In this document: positions 24,932 through 37,211 of the stretch, piece by piece
Layout of the letters: every line of letters begins with the position of its first letter
Numbering within the stretch: position 1 is the first letter of the stretch
Notes under the pieces: model-generated
Seen by the model: the letters and a program-made list of their open reading frames with translations, nothing else
Told to the model about the DNA's origin: nothing
The model's database searches: none
Program-made: the position numbers and the translations under genes
Assembly (NCBI GenBank): GCA_000224765.2
Contig: AGAU01000064.1
Span: forward strand, 12,508 to 76,507
Origin: SAR324 cluster bacterium JCVI-SC AAA005
GTDB taxonomy: Bacteria > SAR324 > NAC60-12
Direction of reading: 5' to 3'
DNA: 64,000 nucleotides

Positions 24932-24982
24932 TCTTCCAAAAGCTTTAAAAATTATAAAATTCTTCTCCCAAAAAATAAAAAA

Positions 24983-26041
24983 ATGCAGCATTTACGAAGT
25001 AAGGAAATCCCTTATGGCTTCCCAACAATTTTTGGTCGTGGGCTAATCGATGAGTTCAAGAATTTTATTAACCCTCCCTTCCTGGTTGTTACCATGGAGG
25101 ACTTATGGCCACTTTTTGGACACCACTTTGATGGAGCAGATTGCCAAACTTATTTCTGTAGCTCAATCGAGCAGGAGAATCTTAATCGTGAAGCCGAAAA
25201 TCTTGGCGAAATTCGAGCAATTGTAGGTCTTGGAGGAGGCCAAGCACTCGATGTCGCTAAGTATTTTAGTTGGCGAAAAAACCTCCCGCTCTTTCAGGCA
25301 CCCACAGCACTCTCCGTCAATGCGGTCTACGGGCAGCGATCTGGAATTCGCATTGATGGTAAGGTGGTCTATAGAGGCTGGGCAATCCCTCAATCAATTT
25401 ACATTGATTATGATGTCCTGGCATCCTGCCCTCCTGCTTTGAACTGGTCTGGAATCGGAGACATTCTTTGCTTTCATACTGGAGTTTTGGATTGGCGTTA
25501 TGCAGAGCGTGAAGGCAAGATCGAAGAAAAATGGCGATATGATGAAGCGCTCGCGCAACAATCATTAAGAAAAGTGAGGGGGATTGTTGAGAATATTGAC
25601 AACATACGGGTGATGAATGACCAGGGGATTGAGGCTTTAGTTGATGGTTTGAAGTGGGGAACAAGCTATCATGGTGCTGGCTGGTGTCCTAGACATATTG
25701 AGGGCACTGATCATTTCCTTTTTTACACTCTTGAAAAACTAACCGGAAAGAAGTTCTTGCATGGACAGCCTGTTGGACTGGGGGTGATTGTTGGATCAAT
25801 GCTTCATGAGGATGGAACTGAGGAAATGTTGGATACCATCTCAAGCATCGGGCTAGACATTCGGCCAGAAGCAATGGGACTTACCTGGGATCAACTGGTG
25901 GAGGGGCTAAAGCTTTTGCGAAGCTATGTGAACGAAGTTGGTCTCTGGCACTCCATCGCTCACGATGTAAACATCAGCGATGGTTTTATCACAGACCTGC
26001 AAAATCGGCTTAATCAGGCCTACCAGCACAAGAAGAGTTAG
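24983..26041 (+). CDS. EgsA/AraM-like oxidoreductase, paralog 2
   Basis: GLGGGQALDVAK, PTALSVN, GIGD, EGTDH and LHGQPV; colinear with paralog 1. Confidence 0.75.
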   Translation: MQHLRSKEIPYGFPTIFGRGLIDEFKNFINPPFLVVTMEDLWPLFGHHFDGADCQTYFCSSIEQENLNREAENLGEIRAIVGLGGGQALDVAKYFSWRKNLPLFQAPTALSVNAVYGQRSGIRIDGKVVYRGWAIPQSIYIDYDVLASCPPALNWSGIGDILCFHTGVLDWRYAEREGKIEEKWRYDEALAQQSLRKVRGIVENIDNIRVMNDQGIEALVDGLKWGTSYHGAGWCPRHIEGTDHFLFYTLEKLTGKKFLHGQPVGLGVIVGSMLHEDGTEEMLDTISSIGLDIRPEAMGLTWDQLVEGLKLLRSYVNEVGLWHSIAHDVNISDGFITDLQNRLNQAYQHKKS

Positions 26042-26067
26042 CTGCACTGATCACATTCAAAATTGAC

Positions 26068-27039
26068 TCAGCATACTGTTCTTTCATTGACCCACTCTCG
26101 GGATCTTTCCCAACGATCCCATGAAAGATCTGAGATGGGCTGCATTTCTAAAACAGCTTGTTCCAGATCCGCAAGTTCTCCGTGGCTGTGGAGCGCAAGA
26201 TCACAACCCACCTCCAAACATCGCTTAATTCTCTCGGGCATTGTTCCTGAAAGAGACTTCATGAAAAGACAGTCGGTGACAAGAACCCCCTTAAACCCAA
26301 TCCAATCACGAATGATCTCACTGATAATTTTGTTTGAAAGGGTCGCTGGCCATTTTTCATCCAGTTCGGGAAATAGAAGGTGACTGGTCATTCCCCATGG
26401 AAGATCAGACAGTATCTGAAAAGGTCGAAAATCCGATTTTTTCAAGAAATCTTCAGTCTCTCGCACAATCGGAAGCTCTTCATGAGGATCTACTGAAGCT
26501 CGTCCGTAGCCGGGTAGGTGCTTGACCGTTGGAATGACCCCTGCCTCACTTAGCCCGTTAGCACAAGCGCGTGCAAACTTGGCGACATGCTTCGGATCTG
26601 AAGCAAAAGCACGATCTCCAATCACTTCATGAGCATCGGGTATCAGTAAATCCGCGACAGGAGCTGCATTAACGGTAATACCCAACTCCTTTAATCCTTT
26701 GCCAAGGCGCCAATAATTTTGGTGAATCCTTTTTTGGATAATAACCTCGCTCCCACCTTCTTCAACAAGTGATCTTGCAGAAGGGTAACGCTTCCATTTA
26801 GGTTGTGGCAATCTTTGAACCCGCCCCCCTTCCTCATCAATCAAGATGGCAAGATCATCACGATCACAGACTTCGTGAAATTGATAAACCAACCGCTTTA
26901 TTTGCTTTGGCTCCTTCAGGTTTCTTGCAAAGAGAATGAAGCCAAAGGGAGAGACTCTTCGAAAAAAATCAGCCCATTCTTTCTCAACTTCCAAACCTGG
27001 AATACCAAAAATAATGGGAAGTACTGGTTTTTGATCCAT
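26068..27039 (-). CDS. nagZ: GH3 beta-N-acetylhexosaminidase
   Basis: DEEGGRVQR, APVAD, KHLPGYG...DPH and TDCL.M. Confidence 0.9.
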   Translation of the reverse strand: MDQKPVLPIIFGIPGLEVEKEWADFFRRVSPFGFILFARNLKEPKQIKRLVYQFHEVCDRDDLAILIDEEGGRVQRLPQPKWKRYPSARSLVEEGGSEVIIQKRIHQNYWRLGKGLKELGITVNAAPVADLLIPDAHEVIGDRAFASDPKHVAKFARACANGLSEAGVIPTVKHLPGYGRASVDPHEELPIVRETEDFLKKSDFRPFQILSDLPWGMTSHLLFPELDEKWPATLSNKIISEIIRDWIGFKGVLVTDCLFMKSLSGTMPERIKRCLEVGCDLALHSHGELADLEQAVLEMQPISDLSWDRWERSREWVNERTVC

Positions 27040-27205
27040 GAATTGGAAACTCTAAAATGAATGAAAAGAGCAGGTTGGGGCACTTTGGGAAACATTACAG
27101 AGGCATCCCATTCATTGAGCGGAGGCCACAGATATCTTAAAACAATAAAACATAGAATAAATTTAGCAACTTCTGGCCCTTCAAAAAAAAGTTGTCTGAT
27201 GAATC

Positions 27206-27280
27206 GAGTTGTTGTACCTTCCCGCCTGCGATTAAGAGGTGCTCAAAGACACAACTGTGGTCTTTGAGCAAATACGACTT
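27206..27280 (+). promoter_or_regulatory. Structured 5' leader of the ngcE-like operon
   Basis: Strong hairpin tgctcaaagac/gtctttgagca at 27240-27270, enclosed by a possible outer stem gagttgt/acgactt. Confidence 0.35.
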
Positions 27281-27324
27281 TGGTGAGGAATTTTTTCTCG
27301 CCTCATCTGTTCATTGGAGCTCAC

Positions 27325-28722
27325 ATGAAAAAATCGGAAATTTCACGAAGACGCTTTATTGAATACACGGGTGCAGCAGGTATGGGTATTGGCCTCAGTT
27401 CGGTCTTGCCTCAGATTTCACTTGCCAAAACGGGCATCAAGGTAGCTTCAGGTGCAGCAAATCCTTTGGGATTGGCATCAAACACCCAGGCTGAGGGCGT
27501 TTTCTTCAGTGGTGGATTCGGACACGCGTACATTGAATATGCTGCTGAAATATTTGGAGAAGTTCATCCTGGCAGTAGCATGTCGGTGGAGGGAATACAG
27601 CGAGTTGGAGAACGCTTACGGCCAAGAATCATTGCGGGGAATCCACCTGATGTAATTGACAACAGTGGTGCTGGAAACCTCGATACGGGAGCACTGGTTG
27701 GAGAAGGGGAATTGATGGATCTTGGACCACTGATGTCAGCGACAGCTCTTGATACTCCTGGCAAAACATTTGGGGAGACCTTGTTTCCAGGGTCACAAAA
27801 TTCTGGTCTTTTCGACGGCGTACAGCGATATGTGAATATTGCCTTCACAGTTTTTGGAGTATGGCACAGCAAGTCTCTATTCGATGAGAAGGGCTGGAAT
27901 TACCCAACAACCTGGGATGGAATGCTCTCACTTTGCGACACTATCAAAACTTCTGGTATTGCACCATGGACTTACCAAGGAAAGTATCCTCAATACATGC
28001 TGTTTGGTCTCTTAGAGCCAATTGTTTCCAAGATTGGTGGACCACAAATTTGGAAAGATGTTGATAACTTAGTTCCTAGTGCTTGGGAACACCCTGCTAT
28101 GTTGCAAGCGCTGAACATGATGAAGGCCTTGCATGATAACGGTTATATCATGGAAGGTACTCCTGGATTGACCCACACAGAATCTCAGGCGGAGTGGTTA
28201 CAGAATAAGGCGGCCTTCATTCCGTGTGGGACCTGGCTGGAAAATGAAATGCGAAGTATTACCCCAGGTGGATTTAATATGGTCATCAAGCCTGTACCTT
28301 CTGATGATGCTTCCAGATTAAGCTGGATTGATGCGAGTTCTGGTGAGCCATTCATGGTCTTTTCCAATGGGAAAAATCCAGTTGCGGGTATGGAGTTTTT
28401 ACGCTGCTTGCTGAGCAAGGAGTCAGCGAAGTGGTTCGCACAGAATGTTGGTTCAATCATGCCTGTGGTAGGTGGAGCAGAGGGTGTGGATCTGAGTTCT
28501 GCAATGACCTCTGCACTTGCTGCAGTGGATAATGCAGGACCTAACATCTTAGACAGACCATCCTTCCCAGGCTGGTACTCTGATATCTACAGCGAAGTCA
28601 AGGACAGCATGGGGGCACTACTGACTGGACGTGCAAGTGCAGAAGAATTTATCGAGCGAGTTCAAGGTGCTTCTGACGATGTTCGTGAAGATGAAGACAT
28701 TGTTAAGTTTAAGAGAACCTAA
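27325..28722 (+). CDS. ngcE: NgcE-like GlcNAc/chitobiose ABC substrate-binding protein, Tat-exported
   Basis: SRRRFI Tat motif; F.GGFG..Y, GNPPDVIDNSGA, WTYQGKYP.Y, HTESQ..W and FIPCGTWLENE, as in Streptomyces NgcE-type proteins. Confidence 0.8.
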   Translation: MKKSEISRRRFIEYTGAAGMGIGLSSVLPQISLAKTGIKVASGAANPLGLASNTQAEGVFFSGGFGHAYIEYAAEIFGEVHPGSSMSVEGIQRVGERLRPRIIAGNPPDVIDNSGAGNLDTGALVGEGELMDLGPLMSATALDTPGKTFGETLFPGSQNSGLFDGVQRYVNIAFTVFGVWHSKSLFDEKGWNYPTTWDGMLSLCDTIKTSGIAPWTYQGKYPQYMLFGLLEPIVSKIGGPQIWKDVDNLVPSAWEHPAMLQALNMMKALHDNGYIMEGTPGLTHTESQAEWLQNKAAFIPCGTWLENEMRSITPGGFNMVIKPVPSDDASRLSWIDASSGEPFMVFSNGKNPVAGMEFLRCLLSKESAKWFAQNVGSIMPVVGGAEGVDLSSAMTSALAAVDNAGPNILDRPSFPGWYSDIYSEVKDSMGALLTGRASAEEFIERVQGASDDVREDEDIVKFKRT

Positions 28723-28796
28723 CGATTGAGAACATTGTCTCAAAAAAGTTTCTCTAAAATCCTCTAACTTTGTATGAATTGCTAAGATAGTTCACA

Positions 28797-28831
28797 TGGC
28801 AGTTGGAACGATCCGCTGATTCCAGCTGCCA
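28797..28831. terminator. Intercistronic hairpin after the SBP gene
   Basis: tggcagttggaa...ttccagctgcca stem. Confidence 0.55.
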
Positions 28832-28887
28832 ACCTCCCTTCCTCTGTCGAGGAAATACCTGATCCTCATGATTGAACAGACTCCGTT

Positions 28888-29763
28888 ATGCGTCGTAACA
28901 AGTACGGGATCATCCTCCCTTTTCTAGCTCCTGCACTTATTCTCTATAGCCTATTCGTAATCTATCCATACTCACAGGCAATGTATGTGGCCTTTACAAA
29001 ATGGAAAGGCCTTAGAAAGTCTCCGAGATTTGTAGGTCTAGATAACTTTGAAAAAATGCTTGGTGATGATAAATTTTGGAACGCACTCTCCAACAATCTG
29101 ATTTATCTCTTTGTTTTACCAATTGTTACGCTTGGTTTTGCACTGTTCATGGCCTTCATGATTTCACAAAAGGTGCGCTTCAATAATTTTTATCGGGTTA
29201 CCTATTTTTTCCCTCAAGTGATGTCAGTGGTAGCTATCGGAATTCTCTGGAGTTTTGTTTATCATCCAACCATCGGCATCTTTAGTTCACTACTAAAAGC
29301 GGTAGGAATTAAGAATCCTCCTGTTTGGCTTGGCGATCCTGATACAGCTCTCTGGTCAATCGTGGCGGTAACGGTATGGCAGTCGGCAGGCTTTTTTATG
29401 GTGATTTTCATGGCGGGTATGCTCTCAATACCAAAATCACTTTATGAAGCTGCAGCACTTGATGGGGCAGGTAGAGGGGCAACTTTTTTTCGAATTACTT
29501 TCCCTTTGCTTTGGGAAAACACTCGTTCCTCGCTCGTTTTTATCACTGTAATAGCGATGGATATGTTTGGCATTACCTTCACGATGACTCAGGGGGGGCC
29601 GGACCGTTCCACTGATGTGCTGGCCACTCTTTTGTACGAGCACGCTTTCTTACATAGTCGTTTTGGGTATGCCACAAGTATAGCGATGGTTTACTTCATC
29701 ATAGTAATCGTGCTGACATTACTAATTTTCCGCGTAACGCGGCGAGAGACGATTGAATTTTAG
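28888..29763 (+). CDS. Amino-sugar ABC permease (NgcF-like)
   Basis: FVGLDNF, YEAAALDGA and GGPDRSTDV. Confidence 0.88.
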   Translation: MRRNKYGIILPFLAPALILYSLFVIYPYSQAMYVAFTKWKGLRKSPRFVGLDNFEKMLGDDKFWNALSNNLIYLFVLPIVTLGFALFMAFMISQKVRFNNFYRVTYFFPQVMSVVAIGILWSFVYHPTIGIFSSLLKAVGIKNPPVWLGDPDTALWSIVAVTVWQSAGFFMVIFMAGMLSIPKSLYEAAALDGAGRGATFFRITFPLLWENTRSSLVFITVIAMDMFGITFTMTQGGPDRSTDVLATLLYEHAFLHSRFGYATSIAMVYFIIVIVLTLLIFRVTRRETIEF

Positions 29764-29771
29764 GAATTAGC

Positions 29772-30608
29772 ATGTACAAAGTGAGCCGCTGGTCAGCTGT
29801 TTCTACGCAAACGGTGTTGGTTGGATGGGCAGTGATAGTGATTTTTCCGATGATCTGGATGATCTATAGTTCCTTCAAGACTGATCAGGAATTGTTCTTC
29901 AGTCCATGGGCCCCTCCAATGGAATTACAGTGGGATAACTTCGCTAGAGCGTGGACAAAAGCTCATGTGGGAGATTATCTTCTAAATACCCTGATTGTTG
30001 TTATTCCTGCTCTGCTATTGACGTTAATTATTTCTGCAATGGCAGCTTATGTCTTGGCGCGGTTTGAATTTGTTGGTCGGCGTTTCCTATTTTACATGTT
30101 TCTTTCTGGAATGCTTTTTCCAGTATTCCTTGCCCTGATACCGCTCTTTAACTTGGTAAATCAATTGAAGATGCTTAACACCTTCCACGGGTTGATTTTA
30201 GTTTACATCGCCTACTCTCTACCCTTCACCATTTTTTTTCTGACAGGCTTCTTCAAGACCCTTCCTACTGAGATCGAAGAATCAGCGATTATGGACGGTG
30301 CTAATCCTTACCAAGTGTTCTTCAAGGTGATGTTGCCAATGGCTTCTCCAGGATTAATCAGCATGGGTATTTTTAACTTTTTGGGGATGTGGAACCAGTA
30401 TGTTTTGCCCTTGGTATTAATCAGTGATGAGAGTAAATATATGCTCTCACAAGGTTTGGCTTTTATGCTGTTCAAGCAATTCTACGAGAATGACTGGAGT
30501 GCTTTGTTTGCAGCGTTAACGATCATTATGGTCCCTACTTTAATTGTATATATAACTTTTCAAAAACAGATTCAAGATGGTATCACGACAGGTGCCCTAA
30601 AAGGTTGA
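29772..30608 (+). CDS. Amino-sugar ABC permease (NgcG-like)
   Basis: SSFKT, EESAIMDGA, WNQY and GALKG. Confidence 0.88.
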   Translation: MYKVSRWSAVSTQTVLVGWAVIVIFPMIWMIYSSFKTDQELFFSPWAPPMELQWDNFARAWTKAHVGDYLLNTLIVVIPALLLTLIISAMAAYVLARFEFVGRRFLFYMFLSGMLFPVFLALIPLFNLVNQLKMLNTFHGLILVYIAYSLPFTIFFLTGFFKTLPTEIEESAIMDGANPYQVFFKVMLPMASPGLISMGIFNFLGMWNQYVLPLVLISDESKYMLSQGLAFMLFKQFYENDWSALFAALTIIMVPTLIVYITFQKQIQDGITTGALKG

Positions 30609-30641
30609 TGATACTAATTTTACTTACTTTATGGAAATTGA

Positions 30642-31349
30642 ATGAAAGTTCTTCTCGCAGGGGGCAGTGGTCGGGTAGCAACACTTGTCACTCCCTTTCT
30701 AGCCAATCATCATCAACTGCGTATTTACGATCGTAATCCACCAGCTGATCAGTCGGTGGAATTTCTTCAAGGAGAATTAACCGATCCAGTTGCTTTAGAT
30801 AAAGCTGTCGAGGGAATGGAAGCTTTCATTTATCTGGCAATGGGCAGGGAAGACTGGGATACCTGGCAAGGAGTTGACTCTGCTTACGATGTGAATGTCA
30901 AGGGTCTGCATTTCCTATTGAGAAGCGCTCAGGCCGCAGGGATTCAACAAGCGGTTTATTGTAGCAGTATGTCGGTATATGCGGACCTTCGGAAGCGCTA
31001 CTTTCAAGATGAGGATATTCCACCAGATGAAACGGAGCTTTATGGTTTCACGAAGTGGATAGGTGAAGAGATTTGCCGCAATGCTTGGCGAAGATGGGGA
31101 ATGCATACTAATGCCCTGCGTCTTTGTCATCCCACCCTGAAAGAAAAGTGGAATCTGGAGACCCGGGAAGGAGTTACTACAATAGCTACAACTGACGAAG
31201 ATGTTGCCTCTGCAATGTTGGGAGCACTTGAACTGAAGGCGGGTTTTCAGGCATTTATGATCAGTGGAGACTTTGAGCAGAAGATTATGTGCATGGCCAA
31301 AGCTGAACGTATGTTGGGTTGGACTCCTAAAGCCCGACCCATCAGATAA
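30642..31349 (+). CDS. Extended SDR, NAD-dependent epimerase/dehydrogenase (uronate dehydrogenase-like)
   Basis: GGSGRVA Rossmann loop; SSMSVY; YGFTK catalytic YxxxK. Confidence 0.82.
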   Translation: MKVLLAGGSGRVATLVTPFLANHHQLRIYDRNPPADQSVEFLQGELTDPVALDKAVEGMEAFIYLAMGREDWDTWQGVDSAYDVNVKGLHFLLRSAQAAGIQQAVYCSSMSVYADLRKRYFQDEDIPPDETELYGFTKWIGEEICRNAWRRWGMHTNALRLCHPTLKEKWNLETREGVTTIATTDEDVASAMLGALELKAGFQAFMISGDFEQKIMCMAKAERMLGWTPKARPIR

Positions 31350-31439
31350 TGTCCAATTGGCAAATGAAATTCATGCAGATTTGCTTCAATAAAATCTTCA
31401 ATCTGCTGATGAAAACTAACTTCTTGAAGAGAGATAAAA

Positions 31440-31958
31440 ATGGCTTTTTTGGTAAAGAAACGTGGAAAGTTATCCTACTACTATGAGGGTGAAGATCCTG
31501 TCTTATCAGCAATGGTAGTAGAAGAACAGCCTGATGGAGACCTGCGGATTCACTTCTCCGGACTTACTGGAGGGCACTCTGCTACGAAGGTTCTTCAGTT
31601 AGATTCAGTCACCACCATGGAACCTGCGATTGAAGTTCCTCTAGTCTTTCGTTGCTGGGAGCATTGGTTGCGGGAAGCTGGTATTTGTCAGTCCATTGCT
31701 GAAATTGACTTTATAGAGATTCATGCATTTGGAGCTCAACCGAAGTCTCCCAGTCCTCTGTCTGATCCTACAGGGTATCGCAAAGAGCAAGAACGAGTTC
31801 GTGCTGAATATGCGAAGGCTTACCGCAATTTCTTCAAGGAGAATTGTCCACAAAACGGAGTTCCTGCTCGTTTTACAGTACATGTTGTCGACTTCCCAGA
31901 TGAAGCAGCTTCCTATGAATTTTATGGAGTAGGTCTTTTGCAGCAGGATCATGGTTGA
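31440..31958 (+). CDS. Divergent RidA/YjgF/UK114-fold protein
   Basis: IHFSGL; AYRNFF; PARFTVHVVDFP...YEFYG matches the Rid signature PARxxVxVxxLP...VEI. Confidence 0.6.
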   Translation: MAFLVKKRGKLSYYYEGEDPVLSAMVVEEQPDGDLRIHFSGLTGGHSATKVLQLDSVTTMEPAIEVPLVFRCWEHWLREAGICQSIAEIDFIEIHAFGAQPKSPSPLSDPTGYRKEQERVRAEYAKAYRNFFKENCPQNGVPARFTVHVVDFPDEAASYEFYGVGLLQQDHG

Positions 31959-32035
31959 GAAAATTTTGAGAGAAACAGCCTTGATATGATGAACATTTAT
32001 CAAAGCTAAAAATATTTGTTCCCAGAAAGGAATCC

Positions 32036-33142
32036 ATGAGTTCAAATTACAAATCGCTTGGGATTCGGCCTATTGTTAACGCGAATGCCACACTAACTAA
32101 ACTTGGTGGTTCACTGATGCCTGCAGAGGTTCGTCAAGTGATGCAGGATGCTGCTCAATCCTTCGTTGACATGCATGATCTTCAACAGAAAGTTGGGGGT
32201 CGCTTGGCAGAAATAACGCGGAATGAAGCTGCCTTTGTTAGTTGTGGAGCTGCGACAGGGTTGCTGCTGGCAACAGCTGCATGCATCCAAAAAGCCTCGG
32301 GAGCAACCTATGAAAACTTTCCTAATCCACCAGAAACTCAGAATGAAGTCATCGTTCAAAGAATGCATCGGAATCCATACGATTATGCGGTAAGACAGGC
32401 TGGAGCTTCATTGGTTGAAATTGGGACAATGAACGGCACTTCCCCAGATGACCTGGAAAACGCCTACAGTTCTTCGACGGTTGCTATTTTCTGGTTCCAG
32501 GGTGACATGAATCAGCCATATGAACTCTCTTTAAAAGATGTAATTCAATCCGCTCAAAAGCATGGTGTGCCAGTCATTGTAGATGGAGCTGCGCAGTTGC
32601 CCCCCGTCAGCAATCTGTGGAATTTCACTCAACAAGGGGCAGACCTAGCAATTTTTAGCGGTGGCAAGGACTTGTCAGGTCCACAGGCATCCGGACTAGT
32701 AGTTGGAAAGTGGGAATGGATCGAGCTGCTCAGGGTCTTGGGTGCCCCCAATCACGGTGTTGGGAGACCTATGAAGGTTGGCAAGGAAGAAATGATGGGC
32801 CTCTTAGCGGCAGTGGAGCGCTATGTAAGCCTTGACCACGATCATTTGCTGGAAGTCTATGAGCACCGTGTCCAGATCTGGATTCAAGGATTGAATGGAA
32901 AAGGTGGACTCTCGGCCAAAAGAGATTATCCCAATGAAGCAGGACAACCGGTCCCAAGAGCCCTAGTTCAGCTTCCAGACAAGTTACCAAAAGATCAACT
33001 AGTTGCCCAGTTAATGGATAGCGAACCTGCTGTTTCTGTTGCTCCCTCTGAGACCCTGAACGCCATCCTTCTCAATCCAATGACGGTAAGCGATGAAGAG
33101 ACGCAGATTGTCTTGGATCAGATTCTTAGTCTAATCTATTAG
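32036..33142 (+). CDS. SelA-like PLP-dependent enzyme (DgaE D-glucosaminate ammonia-lyase family)
   Basis: NANATLTKLGGS, VDGAAQ, FSGGKDLSGPQASG (PLP Lys) and GRPMKVGKEE. Confidence 0.82.
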   Translation: MSSNYKSLGIRPIVNANATLTKLGGSLMPAEVRQVMQDAAQSFVDMHDLQQKVGGRLAEITRNEAAFVSCGAATGLLLATAACIQKASGATYENFPNPPETQNEVIVQRMHRNPYDYAVRQAGASLVEIGTMNGTSPDDLENAYSSSTVAIFWFQGDMNQPYELSLKDVIQSAQKHGVPVIVDGAAQLPPVSNLWNFTQQGADLAIFSGGKDLSGPQASGLVVGKWEWIELLRVLGAPNHGVGRPMKVGKEEMMGLLAAVERYVSLDHDHLLEVYEHRVQIWIQGLNGKGGLSAKRDYPNEAGQPVPRALVQLPDKLPKDQLVAQLMDSEPAVSVAPSETLNAILLNPMTVSDEETQIVLDQILSLIY

Positions 33143-33203
33143 ATTTCTTGCTCATTTTGCCGCTAGTTTCAAGAATTGATGTTTATAAGATAAAAGGAGT
33201 TCT

Positions 33204-34139
33204 GTGCCTAAACCAAATTTGTCGGCTCATGGTACGCAAGTAGTCAAACCAGATGACTTTGATCAGTTTTGGCAGGAAATTATGGATGAAGCAGACTCAA
33301 TTCCATTGAACGCTTCGATTGAATTGGATCCTTTACGCTCAAGCAAAGAAGTGGAAGTGTTTGAGGTCGAGTACGACAGCCTCGATGGTCTGCGGATCGC
33401 TGGCTGGTATTGTCTACCCAAAGACAGAACTAAGCCTCTTCCAGCTCGAGTGTTCTATCCTGGCTATATCAGTGAGCCAACCTTGCCAAAATCACATGCT
33501 GCCCAAGGTTATGCGACCTTTGGTGCTGCTCCACGGGGCAAGTTACGGAGCAATGGCAAATTCAACCCCGGATATCCTGGATTATTGACCCACAATATCA
33601 AAGATCGAAACAGATATGGTTACAAAGGATTTTACATTGATGCGGTGAGAGCCATTGATTTTCTAATCGAGCAACCTGAGGTTGACTCTGACCGCATTGG
33701 AATTCAAGGAAGTAGCCAGGGGGGAGCCTTGACCCTTGTGGTAGCTGCACTCCGCCAACAAATTCTAGCTGCTTCTGCTGGAGCACCTTATCTTGCTGGA
33801 GTTGTGGATGCTTTTAAACTGACCCGAACGTATCCATATGAGGAGATCAACGATTATCTTGGAATTTATCCTGACCAGTGGGCAGATATAGTTAGTACTT
33901 GGAATTATTATGATTGTATCAATTTTGCGGAGCGGATTCGATGTCCCATCATCGTCTACATTGGTCTTCAAGACGATGTCTGCCCTCCAGAGACCGCCTA
34001 TCCACTGATGGAAAAGATCAGTTCGTCTGCCAAGAAGCTCTATGAATACGAAGGGCATGGCCATGACGCTAATCATCATGAGCATGATCATGTGGTAGAT
34101 GCTTTTTTTGACACACAGTTGAAAACAGCTCGTTCTTGA
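33204..34139 (+). CDS. CE7 acetyl esterase / cephalosporin-C deacetylase family
   Basis: PDDFDQFW, GSSQGG nucleophile, GLQDDVCPP and GHGH. Confidence 0.88.
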   Translation: MPKPNLSAHGTQVVKPDDFDQFWQEIMDEADSIPLNASIELDPLRSSKEVEVFEVEYDSLDGLRIAGWYCLPKDRTKPLPARVFYPGYISEPTLPKSHAAQGYATFGAAPRGKLRSNGKFNPGYPGLLTHNIKDRNRYGYKGFYIDAVRAIDFLIEQPEVDSDRIGIQGSSQGGALTLVVAALRQQILAASAGAPYLAGVVDAFKLTRTYPYEEINDYLGIYPDQWADIVSTWNYYDCINFAERIRCPIIVYIGLQDDVCPPETAYPLMEKISSSAKKLYEYEGHGHDANHHEHDHVVDAFFDTQLKTARS

Positions 34140-34168
34140 GTCACCAAGCTCTGAGAATATAAGGAATT

Positions 34169-35035
34169 ATGAAACCCAAAGACTTTGACCAATTCTGGGC
34201 TTGTATTGAAAACGACTTGAGTGCAGTGGTTCTGGAGCCAGAATTGAGAGAACTTTTCATTCGCAGCAAACCCGAATTCAACGTGTACGGCTTGTGGCTG
34301 TCCAGTTTAAAAGGTTATCGAATATTTGCTTACTACAGTGTACCAAGGGGTGAAGGACCGTTCCCAGTCATTTACCATCTCCCAAATTATGGGAGTGTAG
34401 TCCATATTCCACCTTTTGAAGAACGTTGCAAATATATCTGTGTGGCTTTGTGCCACCGAGGCCAACGACTCTCTGATTTGCCATTTGCAGCTTCATATCC
34501 TGGTTTGTTGACTATGGGGATTGAAGCTGCGGATTCTTATATTTACAGAGATATAGCCGGAGATTGCTTATCTGTCATGGACTTTTTGAAAGGTCGTGAA
34601 GAAGTGGATACGGGAAAAATATGTTTATTAGGTGGTGAATTAGCGCTTTGGACAGCGGCTCGTAGGTCTGAAGCAGCCGCACTCCATTATACTCCTGCAC
34701 TTCATTACAACTCCTTAAAGAGGGCATCCCAGACCAGTGATTATCCACTGGAAGAGTTTAATGATCACTTGCGAGGCTCAACGGCCTCTCGCGTTTCTGT
34801 GGAGACAACTCTATCTTATTTCGAGCCAGTCTATCATGCTCCCAAAGTTCAAATACCGACCATGTTAGTTGAGGATTCTGTGGGATCCTGTGAGGATCTA
34901 GTGAATGCTTTTGCTGGGCCTGTTCTTAGAGTACCTTTTCAACATTCGAGTTATCGAGATGGTGTTCGACAAGCAAAATGGATTGCAGACAAACTTGATA
35001 GTGGCCTGCCAATCTTACCAGCACATTGGTGCTAA
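34169..35035 (+). CDS. CE7-family paralog lacking the catalytic serine (pseudoenzyme)
   Basis: PKDFDQFW, RGQ and YPLEE retained; GxSQGG collapsed to LLGGEL; ORF intact. Confidence 0.75.
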   Translation: MKPKDFDQFWACIENDLSAVVLEPELRELFIRSKPEFNVYGLWLSSLKGYRIFAYYSVPRGEGPFPVIYHLPNYGSVVHIPPFEERCKYICVALCHRGQRLSDLPFAASYPGLLTMGIEAADSYIYRDIAGDCLSVMDFLKGREEVDTGKICLLGGELALWTAARRSEAAALHYTPALHYNSLKRASQTSDYPLEEFNDHLRGSTASRVSVETTLSYFEPVYHAPKVQIPTMLVEDSVGSCEDLVNAFAGPVLRVPFQHSSYRDGVRQAKWIADKLDSGLPILPAHWC

Positions 35036-35056
35036 ATTTTGAGGCCAAACAAAATT

Positions 35057-36193
35057 TCACTGCAATCGTAAACCACACTCTGCGTGATGAATTCCCTGTA
35101 CGGCAAGTAGTGGATGAATCAATTTAGTTAGATTTAGACTATCTCCAAGGCTATCTTTGACAGAAGTGTTTGTTTGATCTACACGGAACACGGTTAGGTC
35201 AGCTTTCTGCCCGACGGTCAGCCAATCATCACCTTCTGTTGGGTCTAAAAATGCAGAGGGTCTGGTTGAGCCCGCGGCAATTACCTTCTCGAGTGGCATC
35301 CCCAGATTCAAAAGCTTTGAAAAGGTGGTTGGCAGGTCGTAGGCTGGTCCCTTGATGCTGTTTCGGTGCAGGTCGGTGCTGATCAAATCTGTTTCGATTC
35401 CATTATCTCTCGCGAAGCGCATGACCTTGAAAGAAAAAGAGGCTGCACCATGCCCAACGTCAAGCAAAACCCCTCGTGCTCGGGCTTCGTGGACGGCAGC
35501 AAGTGACCTCTGGTCTTCCATGAGATTGCCACCAGGTTTCCCATGAAAGGCATGGGTGACCACATCTCCTTCCTCGAGAAGATCAAGAACGTCTTCAAGC
35601 AAGGGTGGTGGTTCGCCCACATGAACGATCAATGGCAACCCTGCCACACGGGCTACCTTCCTCGCTACTCGAACCGCTTCAGCACCCAAGTCTCCAGTGA
35701 TGACATGACTAGCTCTGCACTTGACCCCGCGAATTAGGTCCGGATAATTTTCAATTGTCTTTAAAGTTCTTTCCACATTAACTGAACGGAATCCAAGGGA
35801 AAGTTCACTTATTCGATTGCAGGCTACAAGTCCGATGCTACCAATATTCAAGAAAGCAAAAAGCCTCTCTTTGGCCTGTTTCGCAATAAATTCTGAAAAC
35901 CCAATAAAGTTGGCTTCCCCAGCAGATCCACAATCAACTAAAGTTGTCACTCCAGTCTCAAGTCCCGCCTGTTCAGGCCGGATGGAAATGTCGGTCGCCC
36001 CAAAATAGACGTGAACGTGAAGATCCACCCAACCTCTTGAAATCATTGCATTTTCAAATGAATACTCTTTATGACCTTTTGGGTTGTCCAATTGAAGTCC
36101 AAGTCTAGTGATTTTGCCTTTTTCGATTTCAAGATCGATTAATTGTGATTCTGTATTTGAGTTGTTCAAAGGGGTGACGTTGCGGATGATCAT
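35057..36193 (-). CDS. Amidohydrolase/deacetylase, dihydroorotase-like (EF_0837 type)
   Basis: DLHVH, DCGSAG, GVKCRAS, VHVG, THAFHGK, DVGHG and ISTDLH. Confidence 0.85.
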   Translation of the reverse strand: MIIRNVTPLNNSNTESQLIDLEIEKGKITRLGLQLDNPKGHKEYSFENAMISRGWVDLHVHVYFGATDISIRPEQAGLETGVTTLVDCGSAGEANFIGFSEFIAKQAKERLFAFLNIGSIGLVACNRISELSLGFRSVNVERTLKTIENYPDLIRGVKCRASHVITGDLGAEAVRVARKVARVAGLPLIVHVGEPPPLLEDVLDLLEEGDVVTHAFHGKPGGNLMEDQRSLAAVHEARARGVLLDVGHGAASFSFKVMRFARDNGIETDLISTDLHRNSIKGPAYDLPTTFSKLLNLGMPLEKVIAAGSTRPSAFLDPTEGDDWLTVGQKADLTVFRVDQTNTSVKDSLGDSLNLTKLIHPLLAVQGIHHAECGLRLQ

Positions 36194-36320
36194 GTTGAAT
36201 CCAATTTCAAAAGATTTCAAAAAACTTTAAAAATATAGCCATTCAATTTAAGGATTGTGTCCAAGGTAGTTAAGTTGCAATTACGAATATTGCATAAAAA
36301 ATTTAGACTAAGATCACGAA

Positions 36321-37211
36321 GTGCCCCTAAAAGTCATTCCCCTTAATCCCAAATTAATAGATTTTGTTGCAAAGGTAGAAGGTATCTCACTTGGAGAACC
36401 ATTGGCAGTCAAAAGTGTAGAAGCCATCTTCAACGCTTTGGATCGATTCGCAGTACTAGTTTTTCCAAATCAAGTATTGACAGATGAACAGCACATTCGT
36501 TTCAGTCGTTACTTCGGTGACTTGGAGTTGGCTACTGGCGATTACATGAAGCAAGATGACCGACGATTGCAGATGGAATTAAATGACATTTCCAATCTTG
36601 ATCGTACAGGCGGAAAAATAGAAGCTGCTGATGTCAAGAGGCTATTTTCCCTTGGAAATATGCTTTGGCATTCAGACAGTTCGTTCAAGGCTATTCCGGC
36701 ACAATATTCAATCCTTTCTGCCAAGATCATCCCTGCTACTGAAGGGGATACAGAGTTTGCAGACATGAGAGCTGCTTGGAAGGCATTAGATGAAAAAACT
36801 CAACAGAAATGTCTTGGCCAAGTGACTTGTCACAGTCAACTCTACTCCAGGGGAGAACTTGGATTTACGGATTTTCGGGAAGACCAGCAGAAAGCAATGG
36901 TTCCAGTCAGGCAGGCTCTTGTTCGGAGTCACCCCAGGACAAAGAAAATTTCACTGTATCTTTCTGCACATGCAGGCATGATTGAAGGTTGGACAATTCC
37001 AGAAGCAAGGATCTTTCTGAAGCGATTGTCCGAACAAGCCACCCAGCGAGAATTTGTTTATAGACATAGGTGGAGAGTAAATGACTTAGTGATCTGGGAC
37101 AATCAAGCTACAATGCACCGTGCGATGGGCTTTGATAACAAACAAGTTCGCGATATGAGGCGCACAACAATTGCGGGTAATATCTCCTCTCTCAAGGATA
37201 TGCCCTCTTAA
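36321..37211 (+). CDS. TauD/TfdA-family Fe(II)/2-oxoglutarate dioxygenase (TfdA/SdpA-like)
   Basis: WHSDSS, GDTEFADMRAA, WDNQATMHRA and RDMRRTT. Confidence 0.87.
   Translation: MPLKVIPLNPKLIDFVAKVEGISLGEPLAVKSVEAIFNALDRFAVLVFPNQVLTDEQHIRFSRYFGDLELATGDYMKQDDRRLQMELNDISNLDRTGGKIEAADVKRLFSLGNMLWHSDSSFKAIPAQYSILSAKIIPATEGDTEFADMRAAWKALDEKTQQKCLGQVTCHSQLYSRGELGFTDFREDQQKAMVPVRQALVRSHPRTKKISLYLSAHAGMIEGWTIPEARIFLKRLSEQATQREFVYRHRWRVNDLVIWDNQATMHRAMGFDNKQVRDMRRTTIAGNISSLKDMPS

What the first reader, a model, noticed from the sequence alone, without database searches (positions are those of the whole stretch)
26068..36193. Candidate undescribed kinase-free pathway for GlcNAc or oxidised chito-oligosaccharides
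Seen: NagZ divergent from NgcEFG-like ABC, SDR, RidA-like, DgaE/SelA-like PLP enzyme and two CE7 genes, with a convergent EF_0837-type amidohydrolase. There is no nagK, nagA, nagB or PTS. Known: DgaE deaminates glucosaminate-6-phosphate made by a PTS, and an oxidised-chitin route (deacetylation, then deamination to KDG) is described in Pseudoalteromonas with other enzymes. Inference: import, then C1 oxidation by the SDR or direct uptake of the aldonic acid, then deacetylation, then PLP elimination on free glucosaminate with Rid hydrolysing the imine, giving KDG and NH3. This is the strongest candidate for a new system in the window.
Basis: partly seen in the sequence, partly recalled or inferred. 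Interest (0 to 1): 0.8.

Follow-up and report, generated by a model that had tools for sequence, protein, structure and literature searches.

The report
Oxidative GlcNAc-to-KDG gene cluster candidate
A marine bacterium carries a conserved, apparently transcribed operon that probably imports chitin sugars and breaks them down by oxidation, deacetylation and ammonia removal instead of the usual phosphorylation route, using enzyme families not yet tied to this job; none of it has been tested at the bench.

Summary
The order is NagZ-type GH3, then divergently NgcEFG, a short extended SDR, an unannotated 172-aa protein, a DgaE-family PLP enzyme and two CE7 genes, then a convergent cog3964 amidohydrolase.

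- **PLP enzyme.** It keeps the PLP lysine and the carboxylate-binding basic residue. It lacks the His-His loop of the Salmonella enzyme and 2 of the 3 arginines placed at the 6-phosphate.
- **172-aa protein.** It belongs to a small, very conserved family with no Pfam or NCBIfam match. It has a Rid/YjgF-like predicted fold and a predicted trimer.
- **Second CE7 gene.** It lacks the nucleophile serine.
- **Other genomes.** The sub-modules SDR-172aa-cog3964-PLP, CE7a-CE7b-PLP and NgcE-PLP recur in Chloroflexota, Spirochaetota and Actinomycetota. The whole operon is kept in related genomes.
- **Downstream steps.** A KDG-kinase/KDPG(al)-aldolase pair lies elsewhere in the genome.
- **Expression.** Marine metatranscriptome contigs from 4 studies cover the genes.

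Most likely the cluster is an ATP-independent upper route from GlcNAc/chitobiose through N-acetylglucosaminate and glucosaminate to KDG. It has the logic of the Pseudoalteromonas ong pathway, built from non-orthologous enzymes, with an added intracellular oxidation step.

The SDR's regiochemistry and the roles of the two hydrolases are inferred. Sub-threshold NagA/NagB-like genes exist elsewhere in the genome. This scan has noted related DgaE-like/amidohydrolase/Rid modules on other DNA.

The parts
26068..27039 (-). GH3 N-terminal-domain glycosidase, NagZ-type beta-N-acetylglucosaminidase candidate, divergent from the operon
   Evidence: PF00933 scores 166.5 bits. NF003740 scores 182.1 bits, below its cut-off of 207. 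The sequence shows KHLPGYG...DPH and TDCLFM; the NagZ signature these are compared with is recalled, not taken from a call.
27280..28722 (+). NgcE-type substrate-binding protein (GlcNAc/diacetylchitobiose)
   Evidence: TIGR03851 equivalog scores 454.4 bits against a cut-off of 399.65. RNA-library contigs of 3 studies (runs X1, X3, X4) lie on it.
28888..30608 (+). Two ABC permeases (NgcF/NgcG-like), 28888-29763 and 29772-30608
   Evidence: PF00528 in both. Protein identity to same-genus loci is 94-98%. The cluster has no ATPase of its own; the nearest MalK/UgpC-like ATPase is at 23843-24931.
30642..31349 (+). Short (235 aa) extended SDR, NAD-type. Proposed GlcNAc (or GlcN) 1-dehydrogenase
   Evidence: PF01370. 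Weak full-length match to Azf, 53.9 bits against a cut-off of 400. GGSGRV, D30, S108 and Y134xxxK138 are invariant in 14 homologues. The model has pLDDT 90.9. Uronate dehydrogenases match at Z 24.7-25.6 and rmsd 2.4-2.5, tied with many sugar-nucleotide SDRs.
31440..31958 (+). 172-aa protein of an unannotated family with a Rid/YjgF-like predicted fold. Proposed enamine/imine deaminase
   Evidence: No Pfam, NCBIfam or PDB sequence hit. Identity to homologues in other phyla is 65-78%. The VIA wide search gave YjgF/Rid proteins in its top 14 rows, Z 6.3-7.9. Foldseek top hits are AmnE, YabJ and Rid proteins. The trimer model scored 0.56 against a best control of 0.00.
32036..33142 (+). DgaE-family (SelA-like, fold-type I) PLP enzyme. 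Proposed D-glucosaminate ammonia-lyase acting on the non-phosphorylated acid
   Evidence: TIGR01437 scores 213.9 bits (cut-off 385) and NF047797 scores 164.5 (cut-off 600). PDB matches are 8t7j (E 2.7e-42) and 7lc0 (E 3.5e-37). K211 aligns to DGL K213, K225 to R226 and R308 to R301. DGL H162/H163 have no His counterpart (D157 and M158 or a gap), R332 aligns to A336 and R346 to M349.
33204..34139 (+). CE7a: CE7 serine hydrolase with the GSSQG nucleophile, Asp and His present
   Evidence: PF05448 scores 195.7 bits. PDB 1l7a matches at E 3.2e-47. Motifs seen in the alignment.
34169..35035 (+). CE7b: CE7 paralogue without the nucleophile serine
   Evidence: PF05448 scores 68 bits. The four-residue GxSQ stretch is deleted in the window copy and in the L047 and L068 copies. 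A CE7a-type and a CE7b-type gene stand directly upstream of the PLP gene in L039, L047, L059, L067, L068, L073, L075 and L080; L021 has the pair about 2 kb downstream of it.
35057..36220 (-). cog3964-type amidohydrolase-superfamily metallohydrolase, convergent. Proposed N-acetylglucosaminate deacetylase (or lactonase)
   Evidence: NF006689 scores 374.9 bits against a cut-off of 371; TIGR03583 scores 293 against 432. PDB 2ogj matches at E 1.8e-97. The same family lies within 5 kb of the PLP gene in 36 of 80 loci.

Best explanation
The cluster encodes uptake of GlcNAc/chitobiose and an upper catabolic route to 2-keto-3-deoxygluconate (KDG) that spends no ATP.

Proposed steps:
1. NgcEFG imports (GlcNAc)1-2.
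2. The NagZ-type GH3 splits the disaccharide.
3. The short NAD-dependent extended SDR oxidises C1 to the lactone, and so to N-acetyl-D-glucosaminate.
4. One of the two hydrolases (the cog3964 metallohydrolase or the CE7a/CE7b pair) removes the N-acetyl group. The other opens the lactone or removes O-acetyl groups.
5. The DgaE-family PLP enzyme eliminates water and ammonia from free D-glucosaminate.
6. The 172-aa Rid-like protein hydrolyses the released enamine/imine to KDG plus NH3.
7. KDG is then phosphorylated and cleaved by the KDG kinase and KDPG(al) aldolase encoded on another contig.

Shown here: gene content, conservation, family assignments, the residue changes in the PLP enzyme, the Rid-like predicted fold, the serine-less CE7b, and presence in RNA libraries.

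Inferred: every substrate and every reaction.
For: **Transporter.** The SBP is an NgcE equivalog above its cut-off. SBPs beside the PLP homologue in L015, L026, L030, L040 and L058 score 450-490 bits against the cut-off of 399.65.

**PLP enzyme.**
- The DGL paper (passages read) names His162/His163 as strictly conserved. It places the phosphate at Arg301/332/346 and the carboxylate at Arg226.
- A phmmer alignment and a profile alignment to 7lc0 both show K211 at K213, K225 (R in most of the family) at R226 and R308 at R301. Neither shows a His at 162/163. A336 stands at R332 and M349 at R346.
- W153, G156 and (nearly) M158 and M349 are conserved in 23 family members.

**Neighbourhoods of 80 PLP loci** (the best 80 of 557 confirmed relatives), counting genes within 5 kb of the PLP gene:
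- cog3964: 36 of 80.
- CE7: 14 of 80.
- The 172-aa family: 14 of 80.
- Rid: 6 of 80.
- SDR at 40% identity or more: 9 of 80.
- SDR-172aa-cog3964-PLP stand in a row in L006, L010, L015, L031 and L038.
- The 172-aa family and Rid genes are never both within 3 kb of the PLP gene (0 of 80), as expected if they do the same job.
- L031 has a GlcNAc 2-epimerase gene next to the module, and L026 has a PfkB kinase.

**172-aa protein.**
- Rid/YjgF proteins fill the top 14 rows of a Foldseek-independent search (Z 6.3-7.9, 109-126 residues aligned). They are also among the top Foldseek rows.
- A three-copy model scored 0.56, with the best of 3 controls at 0.00. In the tool's calibration, 20 of 30 proteins solved as pairs of one chain reached the mark, against 1 of 23 solved as single chains. 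The runs agree in at least 10% of contacts and the partner pLDDT is at least 53.
- Invariant residues R144, H148, D151, E160 and others lie at the predicted interface.

**Downstream steps.** C508 carries an IlvD-type sugar-acid dehydratase, an aldolase (NF006600, 248 bits against a cut-off of 207) and a KDG/KDGal-kinase-like PfkB (195 bits, below its cut-off of 400) side by side.

**PTS.** No mannose-type PTS EIIC was found in 0 of 5 genomes; 4 of these are at least 92% complete.

**Conservation in kin.** The whole operon is kept in 3 of 3 long same-genus loci and in another genus.

**Expression.** Contigs from 4 RNA libraries of 4 studies, mostly 99% or more identical, lie on NgcE, the permeases, SDR, the 172-aa gene, PLP, both CE7 genes and the amidohydrolase. 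One 947-base contig bridges NgcG and SDR.

**Precedent.** The ong pathway shows the same chemistry on free GlcNAc1A and needs its RidA (passages read).
Against: - No enzyme here has been assayed.
- The SDR scores far below every curated model (Azf 53.9 against 400). Its fold matches sugar-nucleotide epimerases as well as uronate dehydrogenases (Z 24.6-28.5 for 50 rows), so C1 oxidation is a guess from size and context.
- The phosphate site of DGL comes from manual docking in the paper, and one of the three arginines is kept.
- Rid homology is not seen by sequence. There is no Pfam hit, and hhalign gives probability 2%, E 0.025, over 28 columns. The model is only middling (pLDDT 68.7), Z is under 8, and one of the three trimer runs scored 0.00.
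- cog3964 and CE7 are never both within 3 kb of the PLP gene in the 80 loci (0 of 80). They may therefore be alternatives for one step, which leaves the presence of both in this lineage unexplained.
- Most PLP loci have other transporters or none in view. An NgcE at 40% identity or more lies within 5 kb of the PLP gene in only 5 of 80 loci.
- The genome has NagA-like (197 bits against 225.65) and NagB-like (124-126 bits against 236.9) genes with an AGE epimerase on C454, and a ROK kinase on C581. A conventional route for the imported GlcNAc is therefore not excluded.
- RNA libraries can hold DNA, and I laid no silent control stretch.
Confidence: 0.55

Rival explanations
1. The enzymes work as proposed from N-acetylglucosaminate onward, but the physiological input is already oxidised. 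Chitobionic acid or GlcNAc1A, made outside the cell by other organisms' LPMOs, is imported. NagZ splits GlcNAc-GlcNAc1A. The SDR has a side role, for example salvaging the released GlcNAc or acting on another sugar.
For: The ong pathway starts from LPMO products. The MAG itself shows no AA10, GH18 or GH20, so it would be a scavenger (the MAG is 76% complete). The core that recurs most often is cog3964-PLP without the SDR (36 of 80 against 9 of 80).
Against: The SBP scores as an NgcE equivalog, a family defined on neutral GlcNAc/chitobiose. The SDR is kept inside the operon between the permease and the 172-aa gene in all 3 long same-genus loci, and directly after the permease genes in another genus. 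It also stands directly before the 172-aa gene in 5 loci of other phyla.
Confidence: 0.15
2. The SDR, Rid-like protein, PLP enzyme and hydrolases act on a different compound. Candidates are another 2-amino-2-deoxy-aldonate (from GalNAc or ManNAc), an O-acetylated amino sugar, or an N-acyl-D-beta-hydroxy amino acid. NgcEFG/NagZ only feed GlcNAc to the conventional NagK/NagA/NagB-type enzymes encoded elsewhere.
For: - NagA-like, NagB-like, AGE and ROK genes exist in the genome.
- PLP homologues sit beside very different transporters and enzymes: Opp/Dpp-type SBPs, MFS, aldehyde dehydrogenase, enolase-superfamily dehydratases and FAD oxidases.
- CE7 enzymes are known as O-acetyl esterases (PDB titles).
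- By my recollection, cog3964 enzymes hydrolysed acetylated alpha-hydroxy acids in vitro. That paper is not held.
Against: NgcE equivalogs recur next to this PLP subfamily in five further loci of several orders, with a cut-off copy in a sixth. The genes are packed with gaps of 8-165 bases on one strand. The NagA/NagB-like genes score below their cut-offs and lie in a cluster with a sulfatase, an Opp-type transporter and glucuronate isomerase, which suggests another substrate.
Confidence: 0.2
3. The route is phosphorylative like the Salmonella dga pathway. A kinase encoded elsewhere makes glucosaminate-6-phosphate, the PLP enzyme is a true DgaE, and KDPG is the product.
For: The enzyme is in the DgaE family by HMM (TIGR01437 is the best hit). 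Eight PfkB matches and a ROK kinase are present in the genome. One of the three phosphate arginines is kept. A published prediction for haloarchaea assumes an unknown kinase.
Against: - It scores below both DgaE cut-offs.
- There is no His at the His162/His163 positions, which the DGL authors call strictly conserved in DGL.
- R332 and R346 are replaced by Ala and Met, and the Met is nearly invariant in the subfamily.
- There is no kinase in the operon and no mannose-type PTS in 0 of 5 genomes.
- In the ong work, the product of KdgK acting on GlcNAc1A gave no acetate or primary amine with OngB, OngC or OngD. The authors suggest it may inhibit them.
Confidence: 0.07

Closest known systems
ong cluster of Pseudoalteromonas prydzensis: GlcNAc1A catabolism by OngB, OngC, OngD (RidA) and KdgK (PMC9537276, passages read; PMC12017989, abstract and start of the text read)
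   Same: The chemistry is the same on the non-phosphorylated acid: N-deacetylation, PLP-dependent deamination to KDG, a Rid-type helper, then KDG kinase.
   Different: - The enzymes are non-orthologous. The deacetylase candidate is cog3964 or CE7, not the D-aminoacylase-like OngB.
- The lyase is a SelA/DgaE-type enzyme, not the 'D-amino acid deaminase' OngC.
- The helper has no Rid sequence signature.
- Uptake is by NgcEFG, not by TonB receptors plus an SSS transporter.
- The glycosidase is a GH3 NagZ type, not the GH20 OngA.
- An SDR is added that could make the acid inside the cell.
- No LPMO was found in the MAG.
- I had no OngB or OngC sequences, so non-orthology rests on family names and on their absence from the PDB hits.
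[quoted passage not shown]
   Same: Same PLP fold family. The PLP lysine, the basic residue at the carboxylate and one arginine of the phosphate cluster are conserved. The reaction type would be the same (alpha,beta-elimination giving a 2-keto-3-deoxy acid).
   Different: It scores below the equivalog and subfamily cut-offs. It has no His-His loop. Two of the three phosphate arginines are lost. There is no PTS and no adjacent aldolase.
Predicted GlcNAc pathway of Natrarchaeobius (PMC12343721, passages read)
   Same: It is a published in-silico proposal in which GlcNAc is deacetylated, oxidised to glucosaminate and deaminated by a DgaE homologue.
   Different: That proposal uses a CE14 deacetylase and glucose dehydrogenase, assumes an unknown kinase and KDPG as the product, and is in archaea. 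It has no NgcEFG, cog3964, CE7 pair or 172-aa protein.
cog3964 amidohydrolases (PDB 2ogj, Agrobacterium; Ornelas et al. 2013, recalled, paper not held) and the EF_0837 group (TIGR03583)
   Same: The window's hydrolase matches 2ogj at E 1.8e-97 and passes NF006689.
   Different: The physiological substrate of this family is unknown to me. The EF_0837 model itself is not passed (293 against 432).
Orphan activities N-acetylhexosamine 1-dehydrogenase (EC 1.1.1.240) and D-glucosaminate ammonia-lyase (EC 4.3.1.9) of Pseudomonas/Agrobacterium (recalled from the older literature; no call)
   Same: They are the two reactions proposed here for the SDR and the PLP enzyme, on free substrates.
   Different: As far as I recall, no genes of these families were assigned to them. 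This link is a lead only.
NgcEFG plus NagK/NagA/NagB route of Streptomyces and others (recalled)
   Same: Same transporter family and the same imported sugars.
   Different: No kinase, NagA or NagB is in the cluster. An oxidative module follows the permease genes instead.

Membership tests
[quoted passage not shown] | Score at or above the curated HMM cut-offs | tested here: not met
   NF047797 scores 164.5 bits against 600; TIGR01437 scores 213.9 against 385.3.
[quoted passage not shown] | PLP-binding lysine and a basic residue at the alpha-carboxylate (DGL K213, R226) | tested here: met
   K211 lies in the invariant SGGK. K225 is R in most family members.
[quoted passage not shown] | His162-His163 loop, which the authors call strictly conserved in DGL | tested here: not met
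   No His in either alignment. H162 pairs with D157 in both; H163 pairs with M158 (profile alignment) or with a gap (phmmer). The family consensus is FWFQG-A-M-N.
[quoted passage not shown] | Arg301/Arg332/Arg346 cluster at the 6-phosphate (from docking in the paper) | tested here: not met
   R308 is kept. A336 and M349 replace the other two. The PDB relative 8t7j keeps Arg at both of those positions.
[quoted passage not shown] | Operon with a mannose-type PTS and a KDPG aldolase | tested here: not met
   No PF03609 match in 0 of 5 genomes. The aldolase is on another contig.
ong-type GlcNAc1A catabolic cluster | OngB-type (D-aminoacylase-like) deacetylase | tested here: inconclusive
   The hydrolase is cog3964 (NF006689). 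Its 4 PDB hits are 2ogj, 8wzy, 2ics and 8je0. No OngB sequence was at hand for a direct comparison.
ong-type GlcNAc1A catabolic cluster | RidA-family protein and a KDG kinase | tested here: inconclusive
   There is a Rid-like predicted fold only. A KDG-kinase-like PfkB lies on C508, below its cut-off.
Rid / YjgF (PF01042, PF14588) | Pfam or NCBIfam model match | tested here: not met
   No family at E up to 0.001 for the window protein, or at E up to 0.01 for 10 family members. A profile search of 1.84 billion representatives found 168 proteins. The 10 of these that I scanned have no Rid Pfam match.
Rid / YjgF (PF01042, PF14588) | Chorismate-mutase-like beta-alpha fold of about 120 residues | tested here: met
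   The top 14 rows of the VIA wide search are YjgF/Rid proteins: Z 6.3-7.9, rmsd 2.9-3.9, 109-126 residues aligned. Foldseek gives E about 2e-4. Caveats: model pLDDT is 68.7 and Z is under 8.
Rid / YjgF (PF01042, PF14588) | Homotrimer with conserved residues at subunit interfaces | tested here: inconclusive
   The model scored 0.56 (runs 0.70, 0.56, 0.00) against a best control of 0.00. R144, H148, D151 and E160 are at the interface. This is a prediction only.
Rid / YjgF (PF01042, PF14588) | Carboxylate-binding arginine of the RidA subgroup | tested here: inconclusive
   hhalign pairs the PARFTVH stretch (R144) with the invariant HARSAVG arginine of 5 Rid proteins, but at probability 2% and E 0.025.
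CE7 (PF05448) | HMM match | tested here: met
   CE7a scores 195.7 bits and CE7b 68 bits, against a cut-off of 21.
CE7 (PF05448) | GxSQG nucleophile with Asp and His | tested here: not met
   Met in CE7a (GSSQG, DD, GHD). Not met in CE7b, where the four residues that hold the serine are deleted. The same deletion is in L047_b and L068_b.
NgcE (TIGR03851) | Equivalog HMM cut-off | tested here: met
   454.4 bits against 399.65. Ligand binding cannot be tested with these tools.
NagZ (NF003740) | Equivalog HMM cut-off | tested here: not met
   182.1 bits against 207. The GH3 N-terminal domain is met. An Asp-His motif is present (the signature itself is recalled).
cog3964 amidohydrolase (NF006689) / EF_0837 (TIGR03583) | HMM cut-offs | tested here: met
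   NF006689 scores 374.9 against 371, so it is met. TIGR03583 scores 293.3 against 432.15, so it is not met.
Uronate dehydrogenase / Azf-type short extended SDR (sugar C1 dehydrogenases) | HMM or distinctive structural match | tested here: inconclusive
   Azf scores 53.9 bits against 400. Udh structures match at Z 24.7-25.6 with the lowest rmsd (2.4-2.5) and no skipped inserts, but are tied with epimerases at Z 24.6-28.5.

The most novel reading that the evidence does not exclude
Abundant marine bacteria of this lineage (a member of the same 90%-identity protein cluster is labelled SAR324) and many Chloroflexota catabolise GlcNAc by a route with no ATP investment before KDG. In this reading:
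- An NAD-dependent GlcNAc 1-dehydrogenase would be the gene behind an orphan activity.
- A DgaE-like lyase is re-tooled for the non-phosphorylated acid.
- A previously unrecognised, very conserved branch of the Rid fold acts as its dedicated imine deaminase.
- A heteromeric CE7 hydrolase with a serine-less subunit is an alternative to the cog3964 hydrolase.
Probability: 0.35. Interest if true: 0.75.

Novelty: new variant of a known kind. Interest (0 to 1): 0.6.

Why it matters
Chitin and peptidoglycan amino sugars are a large pool of marine carbon and nitrogen. If the reading is right, several things follow.
- A widespread uncultured group would use GlcNAc through an oxidative route that standard annotation (nagK/nagA/nagB) misses, so genome-based budgets of amino-sugar use would be too low.
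- The large, mostly unassigned DgaE-like and cog3964 families would gain a first physiological context on non-phosphorylated substrates.
- A 172-aa 'hypothetical protein' would get a function. One search found this exact sequence on 158 contigs.
- Candidate genes would exist for two old orphan enzyme activities.
- The serine-less CE7 partner would be a separate small puzzle in a well-studied esterase family.

Tried and rejected
- The promoter and terminator scan of 25900-37400 found fewer sites than the shuffles (14 against 17.3; 7 against 10.4). It says nothing about operon structure.
- The protein atlas look-up for the 172-aa protein gave only its own kind of 'hypothetical protein' cluster at 0.77.
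- The PDB sequence search with the 172-aa protein gave 0 hits at E up to 10.
- hhalign of the 172-aa family against 5 Rid proteins gave probability 2%. It is kept only as a pointer to the PAR motif.
- Fold searches with the SDR model do not discriminate between sugar C1 dehydrogenases and NDP-sugar epimerases.
- AA10, GH18 and GH20 were not found in the window's MAG. At 76% completeness this is not absence.
- No contig of the four RNA runs lay on 25900-26661. The tool warns that a hole proves nothing.
- One of the three trimer runs scored 0.00.
- The cog3964 paper could not be read. What I say about it is recalled.
- Literature searches found no paper that assigns this gene set or a free-glucosaminate activity to a DgaE-like enzyme. 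The searches were: glucosaminate/deacetylase/chitin/KDG; DgaE; six names of the intermediates and enzymes; cog3964; glucosaminate plus 2-keto-3-deoxygluconate; SAR324 plus N-acetylglucosamine. The library lacks most subscription journals, and I opened no supplementary files.
- I considered TauD (36321-37211) and the split GFO gene as parts of the system and dropped them. TauD is next to the amidohydrolase only in the same genus, with a 4-kb gap in one locus, and is not seen in L102.

Full report
**1. What is there**

On the minus strand, 26068-27039 encodes a 323-aa protein that consists of a GH3 N-terminal domain. It scores 182 bits on the NagZ model, under the cut-off of 207. It carries KHLPGYG...DPH and TDCLFM, which fit the NagZ Asp-His signature as I recall it.

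Divergent from it, all on the plus strand and 8-165 bases apart, lie eight genes:
- an NgcE equivalog (454 bits against a cut-off of 399.65);
- two permeases;
- a 235-aa extended SDR;
- a 172-aa ORF with no family;
- a DgaE-family PLP enzyme;
- two CE7 genes.

A cog3964 amidohydrolase converges on the operon's end. It passes NF006689 (374.9 against 371). It does not pass the EF_0837 model (293 against 432). It matches PDB 2ogj at E 1.8e-97.

No nagK, nagA, nagB or PTS family appears among the window ORFs scanned. The cluster has no ABC ATPase. The nearest, a MalK/UgpC-like one, sits in the neighbouring operon at 23843-24931.

**2. The genome**

The window lies in a MAG of 4.26 Mb in 646 contigs, 75.8% complete. 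A member of the same 90%-identity cluster as the SDR is labelled 'SAR324 cluster bacterium'. The exact 172-aa sequence was seen on 158 contigs, including marine surveys. Each cluster gene is single-copy in the MAG.

**3. Conservation in kin**

The 172-aa gene is found in 10 of 41 relatives. Without the window's own genome, that is 7 of 8 genomes of the same genus and 9 of 24 of the same family.

In the phylum it is found in 10 of 73 genomes. These were filtered at 80% completeness, plus the window's own genome. All 10 are in one family. The cluster is therefore an accessory trait.

Three long same-genus loci keep the whole order, from NagZ through NgcEFG-SDR-172aa-PLP-CE7a-CE7b to the amidohydrolase, at 86-97% protein identity. 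A genome of another genus keeps it at 60-88% identity, with about 3.4 kb inserted between the SDR and the 172-aa gene.

**4. Conservation elsewhere**

An alignment of 23 PLP homologues was used to scan one genome for each of 185,579 species. Of the matches, 557 stretches encode a relative, and the best 80 loci were kept. They come mostly from Chloroflexota, with some Spirochaetota, Armatimonadota, Poribacteria, Actinomycetota and others.

Counts by tblastn within 5 kb of the PLP gene:

| Gene family | Loci of 80 |
|---|---|
| cog3964 amidohydrolase | 36 |
| CE7 | 14 |
| 172-aa family | 14 |
| TIGR04076 small protein | 12 |
| SDR (40% identity or more) | 9 |
| Rid | 6 |
| NgcE (40% identity or more) | 5 |

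Only 43 of the 80 loci have 5 kb on both sides. Among these the counts are 17, 9, 5, 7, 3, 6 and 4, in the same order as the table.

Further points on these loci:
- The adjacent amidohydrolases are also NF006689 members (377-436 bits), although only 26-38% identical to the window's.
- SDR-172aa-cog3964-PLP stand in a row in L006, L010, L015, L031 and L038.
- CE7a-CE7b stand directly before the PLP gene in L039, L047, L059, L067, L068, L073, L075 and L080.
- cog3964 and CE7 are never both within 3 kb of the PLP gene (0 of 80). The 172-aa family, Rid and TIGR04076 also exclude each other.
- NgcE equivalogs, all above the cut-off, flank the PLP gene in L015, L026, L030, L040 and L058.
- L031 adds a GlcNAc 2-epimerase and an MFS transporter. 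L026 adds a PfkB kinase and a DeoR regulator.
- In L049 and L056 an FAD amine-oxidase-like gene and an ABM-fold gene stand where the SDR would be.

**5. The PLP enzyme**

Its nearest solved relatives are 8t7j and the Salmonella DGL 7lc0. The DGL paper (passages read) makes three relevant statements:
- His162/His163 are strictly conserved in DGL, and His163 protonates C3.
- In a manually docked model the phosphate lies by Arg301, Arg332 and Arg346.
- The carboxylate lies by Arg226.

A pairwise alignment and a profile alignment agree on these correspondences:

| DGL residue | Window protein | Note |
|---|---|---|
| K213 | K211 | PLP lysine |
| R226 | K225 | R in most of the subfamily |
| R301 | R308 | kept |
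| H162, H163 | D157, M158 | no His in either alignment; consensus FWFQG-A-M-N |
| R332 | A336 | lost |
| R346 | M349 | lost; Met nearly invariant |

8t7j keeps arginines at both of the last two positions.

The enzyme is thus a DgaE relative that fails the family's cut-offs. It has also lost the features tied to the phosphorylated tail. This is the best sequence-level support for a non-phosphorylated substrate. The caveat is that the phosphate site itself is a docking model.

**6. The 172-aa protein**

It has no Pfam, NCBIfam or PDB sequence match. Its homologues in other phyla are 65-78% identical to it, with a mean column identity of 79%. The PLP enzyme's homologues are 52-88% identical to it.

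A profile search of 1.84 billion representatives found only 168 proteins, mostly fragments. The 10 I scanned have no Rid family; the only Pfam hit among them is a histidine-phosphatase domain in a 511-aa protein.

The AlphaFold model is middling (pLDDT 68.7, pTM 0.69) and has the order beta-beta-beta-alpha-beta-alpha-beta-beta. Foldseek's best rows include AmnE deaminase, YabJ and Rid proteins at E about 2e-4. The Foldseek-independent search of 48,161 chains puts YjgF/Rid proteins in all of its top 14 rows (Z 6.3-7.9, 109-126 residues aligned).

hhalign against five Rid proteins aligns only PARFTVHVVDFPD to the Rid HARSAVG..LP stretch, at probability 2%.

A three-copy model scored 0.56, with the best of 3 controls at 0.00. 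In the tool's calibration the mark was reached by 20 of 30 proteins solved as pairs of one chain, against 1 of 23 solved as single chains. The runs agree in at least 10% of contacts and the partner pLDDT is at least 53. One run scored 0.00. Invariant R144, H148, D151, E160 and others lie at the interface.

Together with its mutual exclusion with Rid genes beside the PLP gene, I read it as a divergent Rid-fold enamine/imine deaminase. This is an inference.

**7. The SDR**

It has the NAD-type Rossmann motif, an acidic residue after beta-2, and S108/Y134/K138 invariant in 14 homologues. Its best curated match is the archaeal glucose-6-phosphate dehydrogenase Azf, over the full length but far below the cut-off.

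The model is good (pLDDT 90.9). Uronate dehydrogenases align end to end with the lowest rmsd (2.4-2.5, Z 24.7-25.6). Sugar-nucleotide epimerases score the same or higher once their extra C-terminal parts are skipped. An unassigned Agrobacterium SDR, 4id9, is first at Z 28.5.

The protein therefore resembles the short, free-sugar-oxidising members in size. Oxidation at C1 remains a guess.

**8. The hydrolases**

CE7a has GSSQG, the Asp and the His. CE7b lacks the four residues that hold the serine, as do its counterparts in L047 and L068. The pair is therefore probably one catalytic and one non-catalytic subunit.

Either the pair or a cog3964 enzyme accompanies the PLP gene in other lineages, but never both. 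That suggests each can supply the step the lyase depends on, most simply removal of the N-acyl group. In this lineage both are present, so one may open the lactone or remove O-acetyl groups. I cannot assign the roles.

**9. Rest of the pathway**

Contig C508 carries three genes side by side:
- an IlvD-type sugar-acid dehydratase;
- a KDPGal/KDPG aldolase (248 bits against 207);
- a KDG/KDGal-kinase-like PfkB (195 against 400).

KDG can therefore plausibly be used.

No mannose-type PTS EIIC was found in 0 of 5 related genomes.

Against a strictly 'alternative' reading:
- C454 holds an AGE epimerase, a NagB-like gene (124-126 bits against 237) and a NagA-like gene (197 against 226). They lie within a cluster with an Opp-type transporter, a sulfatase and glucuronate isomerase.
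- The NagA-like gene is kept in 5 of 5 genomes.
- A ROK kinase is on C581.
- No AA10, GH18 or GH20 was found in the MAG. The organism would then be a scavenger of soluble products.

**10. Expression**

Twenty-one of 24 listed runs hold part of the stretch, and 19 of them are on record as RNA, from 9 studies.

Contigs of four RNA libraries from four studies, mostly 99% or more identical, lie on NgcE, the permeases, the SDR, the 172-aa gene, the PLP gene, both CE7 genes and the amidohydrolase. One 947-base contig bridges NgcG and the SDR, and one bridges CE7b and the amidohydrolase's 3' end.

This is consistent with transcription at sea. It does not prove it, because DNA can be present in such libraries and I laid no silent control stretch.

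**11. Comparison and novelty**

The chemistry matches the ong pathway (OngB deacetylase, OngC deaminase, essential RidA OngD, KdgK). The enzyme families differ, uptake and glycosidase differ, and an oxidising step is added.

A DgaE homologue in an oxidative GlcNAc route has been predicted for haloarchaea, with an assumed kinase. Six literature searches found no paper that assigns this gene set.

Earlier notes of this scan describe DgaE-like/amidohydrolase/Rid modules in other genomes. These are leads, not evidence.

I file the finding as a new variant of a known kind. It has three parts that are new in themselves: the Rid-fold 172-aa family, the serine-less CE7 partner, and the NgcEFG-SDR link.

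Noticed in passing
window 19563-26041: The neighbouring operon has a sugar SBP, two permeases, and then two paralogous Fe-ADH-fold genes flanking a MalK/UgpC-like ATPase. The Fe-ADH-fold genes are glycerol-1-phosphate-dehydrogenase-like, at 113-117 bits against a cut-off of 413. The combination is unusual, and the ATPase may also power NgcEFG. FeADH2 is also next to NagZ in same-genus loci.
   Followed up: partly
window 37319-38420 (-): A GFO/IDH/MocA oxidoreductase is split into two overlapping ORFs: the N-terminal domain at 37854-38420 and the C-terminal domain at 37319-37873. This is a possible frameshift or assembly error.
   Followed up: no
window 25-4326 and 4323-8943: A purine/urate breakdown set (polysaccharide-deacetylase-like gene, OHCU decarboxylase, HIUase, allantoicase, ureidoglycolate lyase, deaminase) is followed by a Bmp/PnrA-type nucleoside ABC transporter.
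   Followed up: no
window 57985-60421 (-): A sulfatase with an N-sulphoglucosamine sulphohydrolase C-terminal domain lies next to a PhyH-family dioxygenase. Together with the C454 cluster, this hints at use of sulfated amino-sugar polymers.
   Followed up: no
L086 (G000:C454:64000-82000): This cluster holds a PhyH/ectoine-hydroxylase-like gene, an AGE epimerase, a NagB-like gene, an Opp-type ABC transporter interrupted by an arylsulfatase, a NagA-like gene and glucuronate isomerase. It is a candidate route for sulfated glycosaminoglycan fragments.
   Followed up: partly
L025, L028, L034, L036, L042, L043, L044 (directly after the PLP gene); L035 about 3.4 kb downstream: A roughly 105-115-aa TIGR04076-family protein with no Pfam match follows the PLP gene. 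By tblastn it lies within 5 kb of the PLP gene in 12 of 80 loci. It is never within 3 kb of that gene together with the 172-aa family or Rid. It may be a third kind of helper.
   Followed up: partly
L049 7688-12823; L056 6275-13032: In two Anaerolineae loci the 172aa-cog3964-PLP module is preceded by an ABM-fold protein and followed, on the other strand, by an FAD amine-oxidase-like gene. L056 also has a classical SDR. No Udh-like SDR is present, so the oxidising partner may be an alternative one.
   Followed up: no
window 36321-37211: A TauD-family dioxygenase lies just past the amidohydrolase. It is adjacent in one same-genus locus and 4 kb away in another, and is not seen in the other-genus locus. 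Its link to the cluster is unclear.
   Followed up: partly
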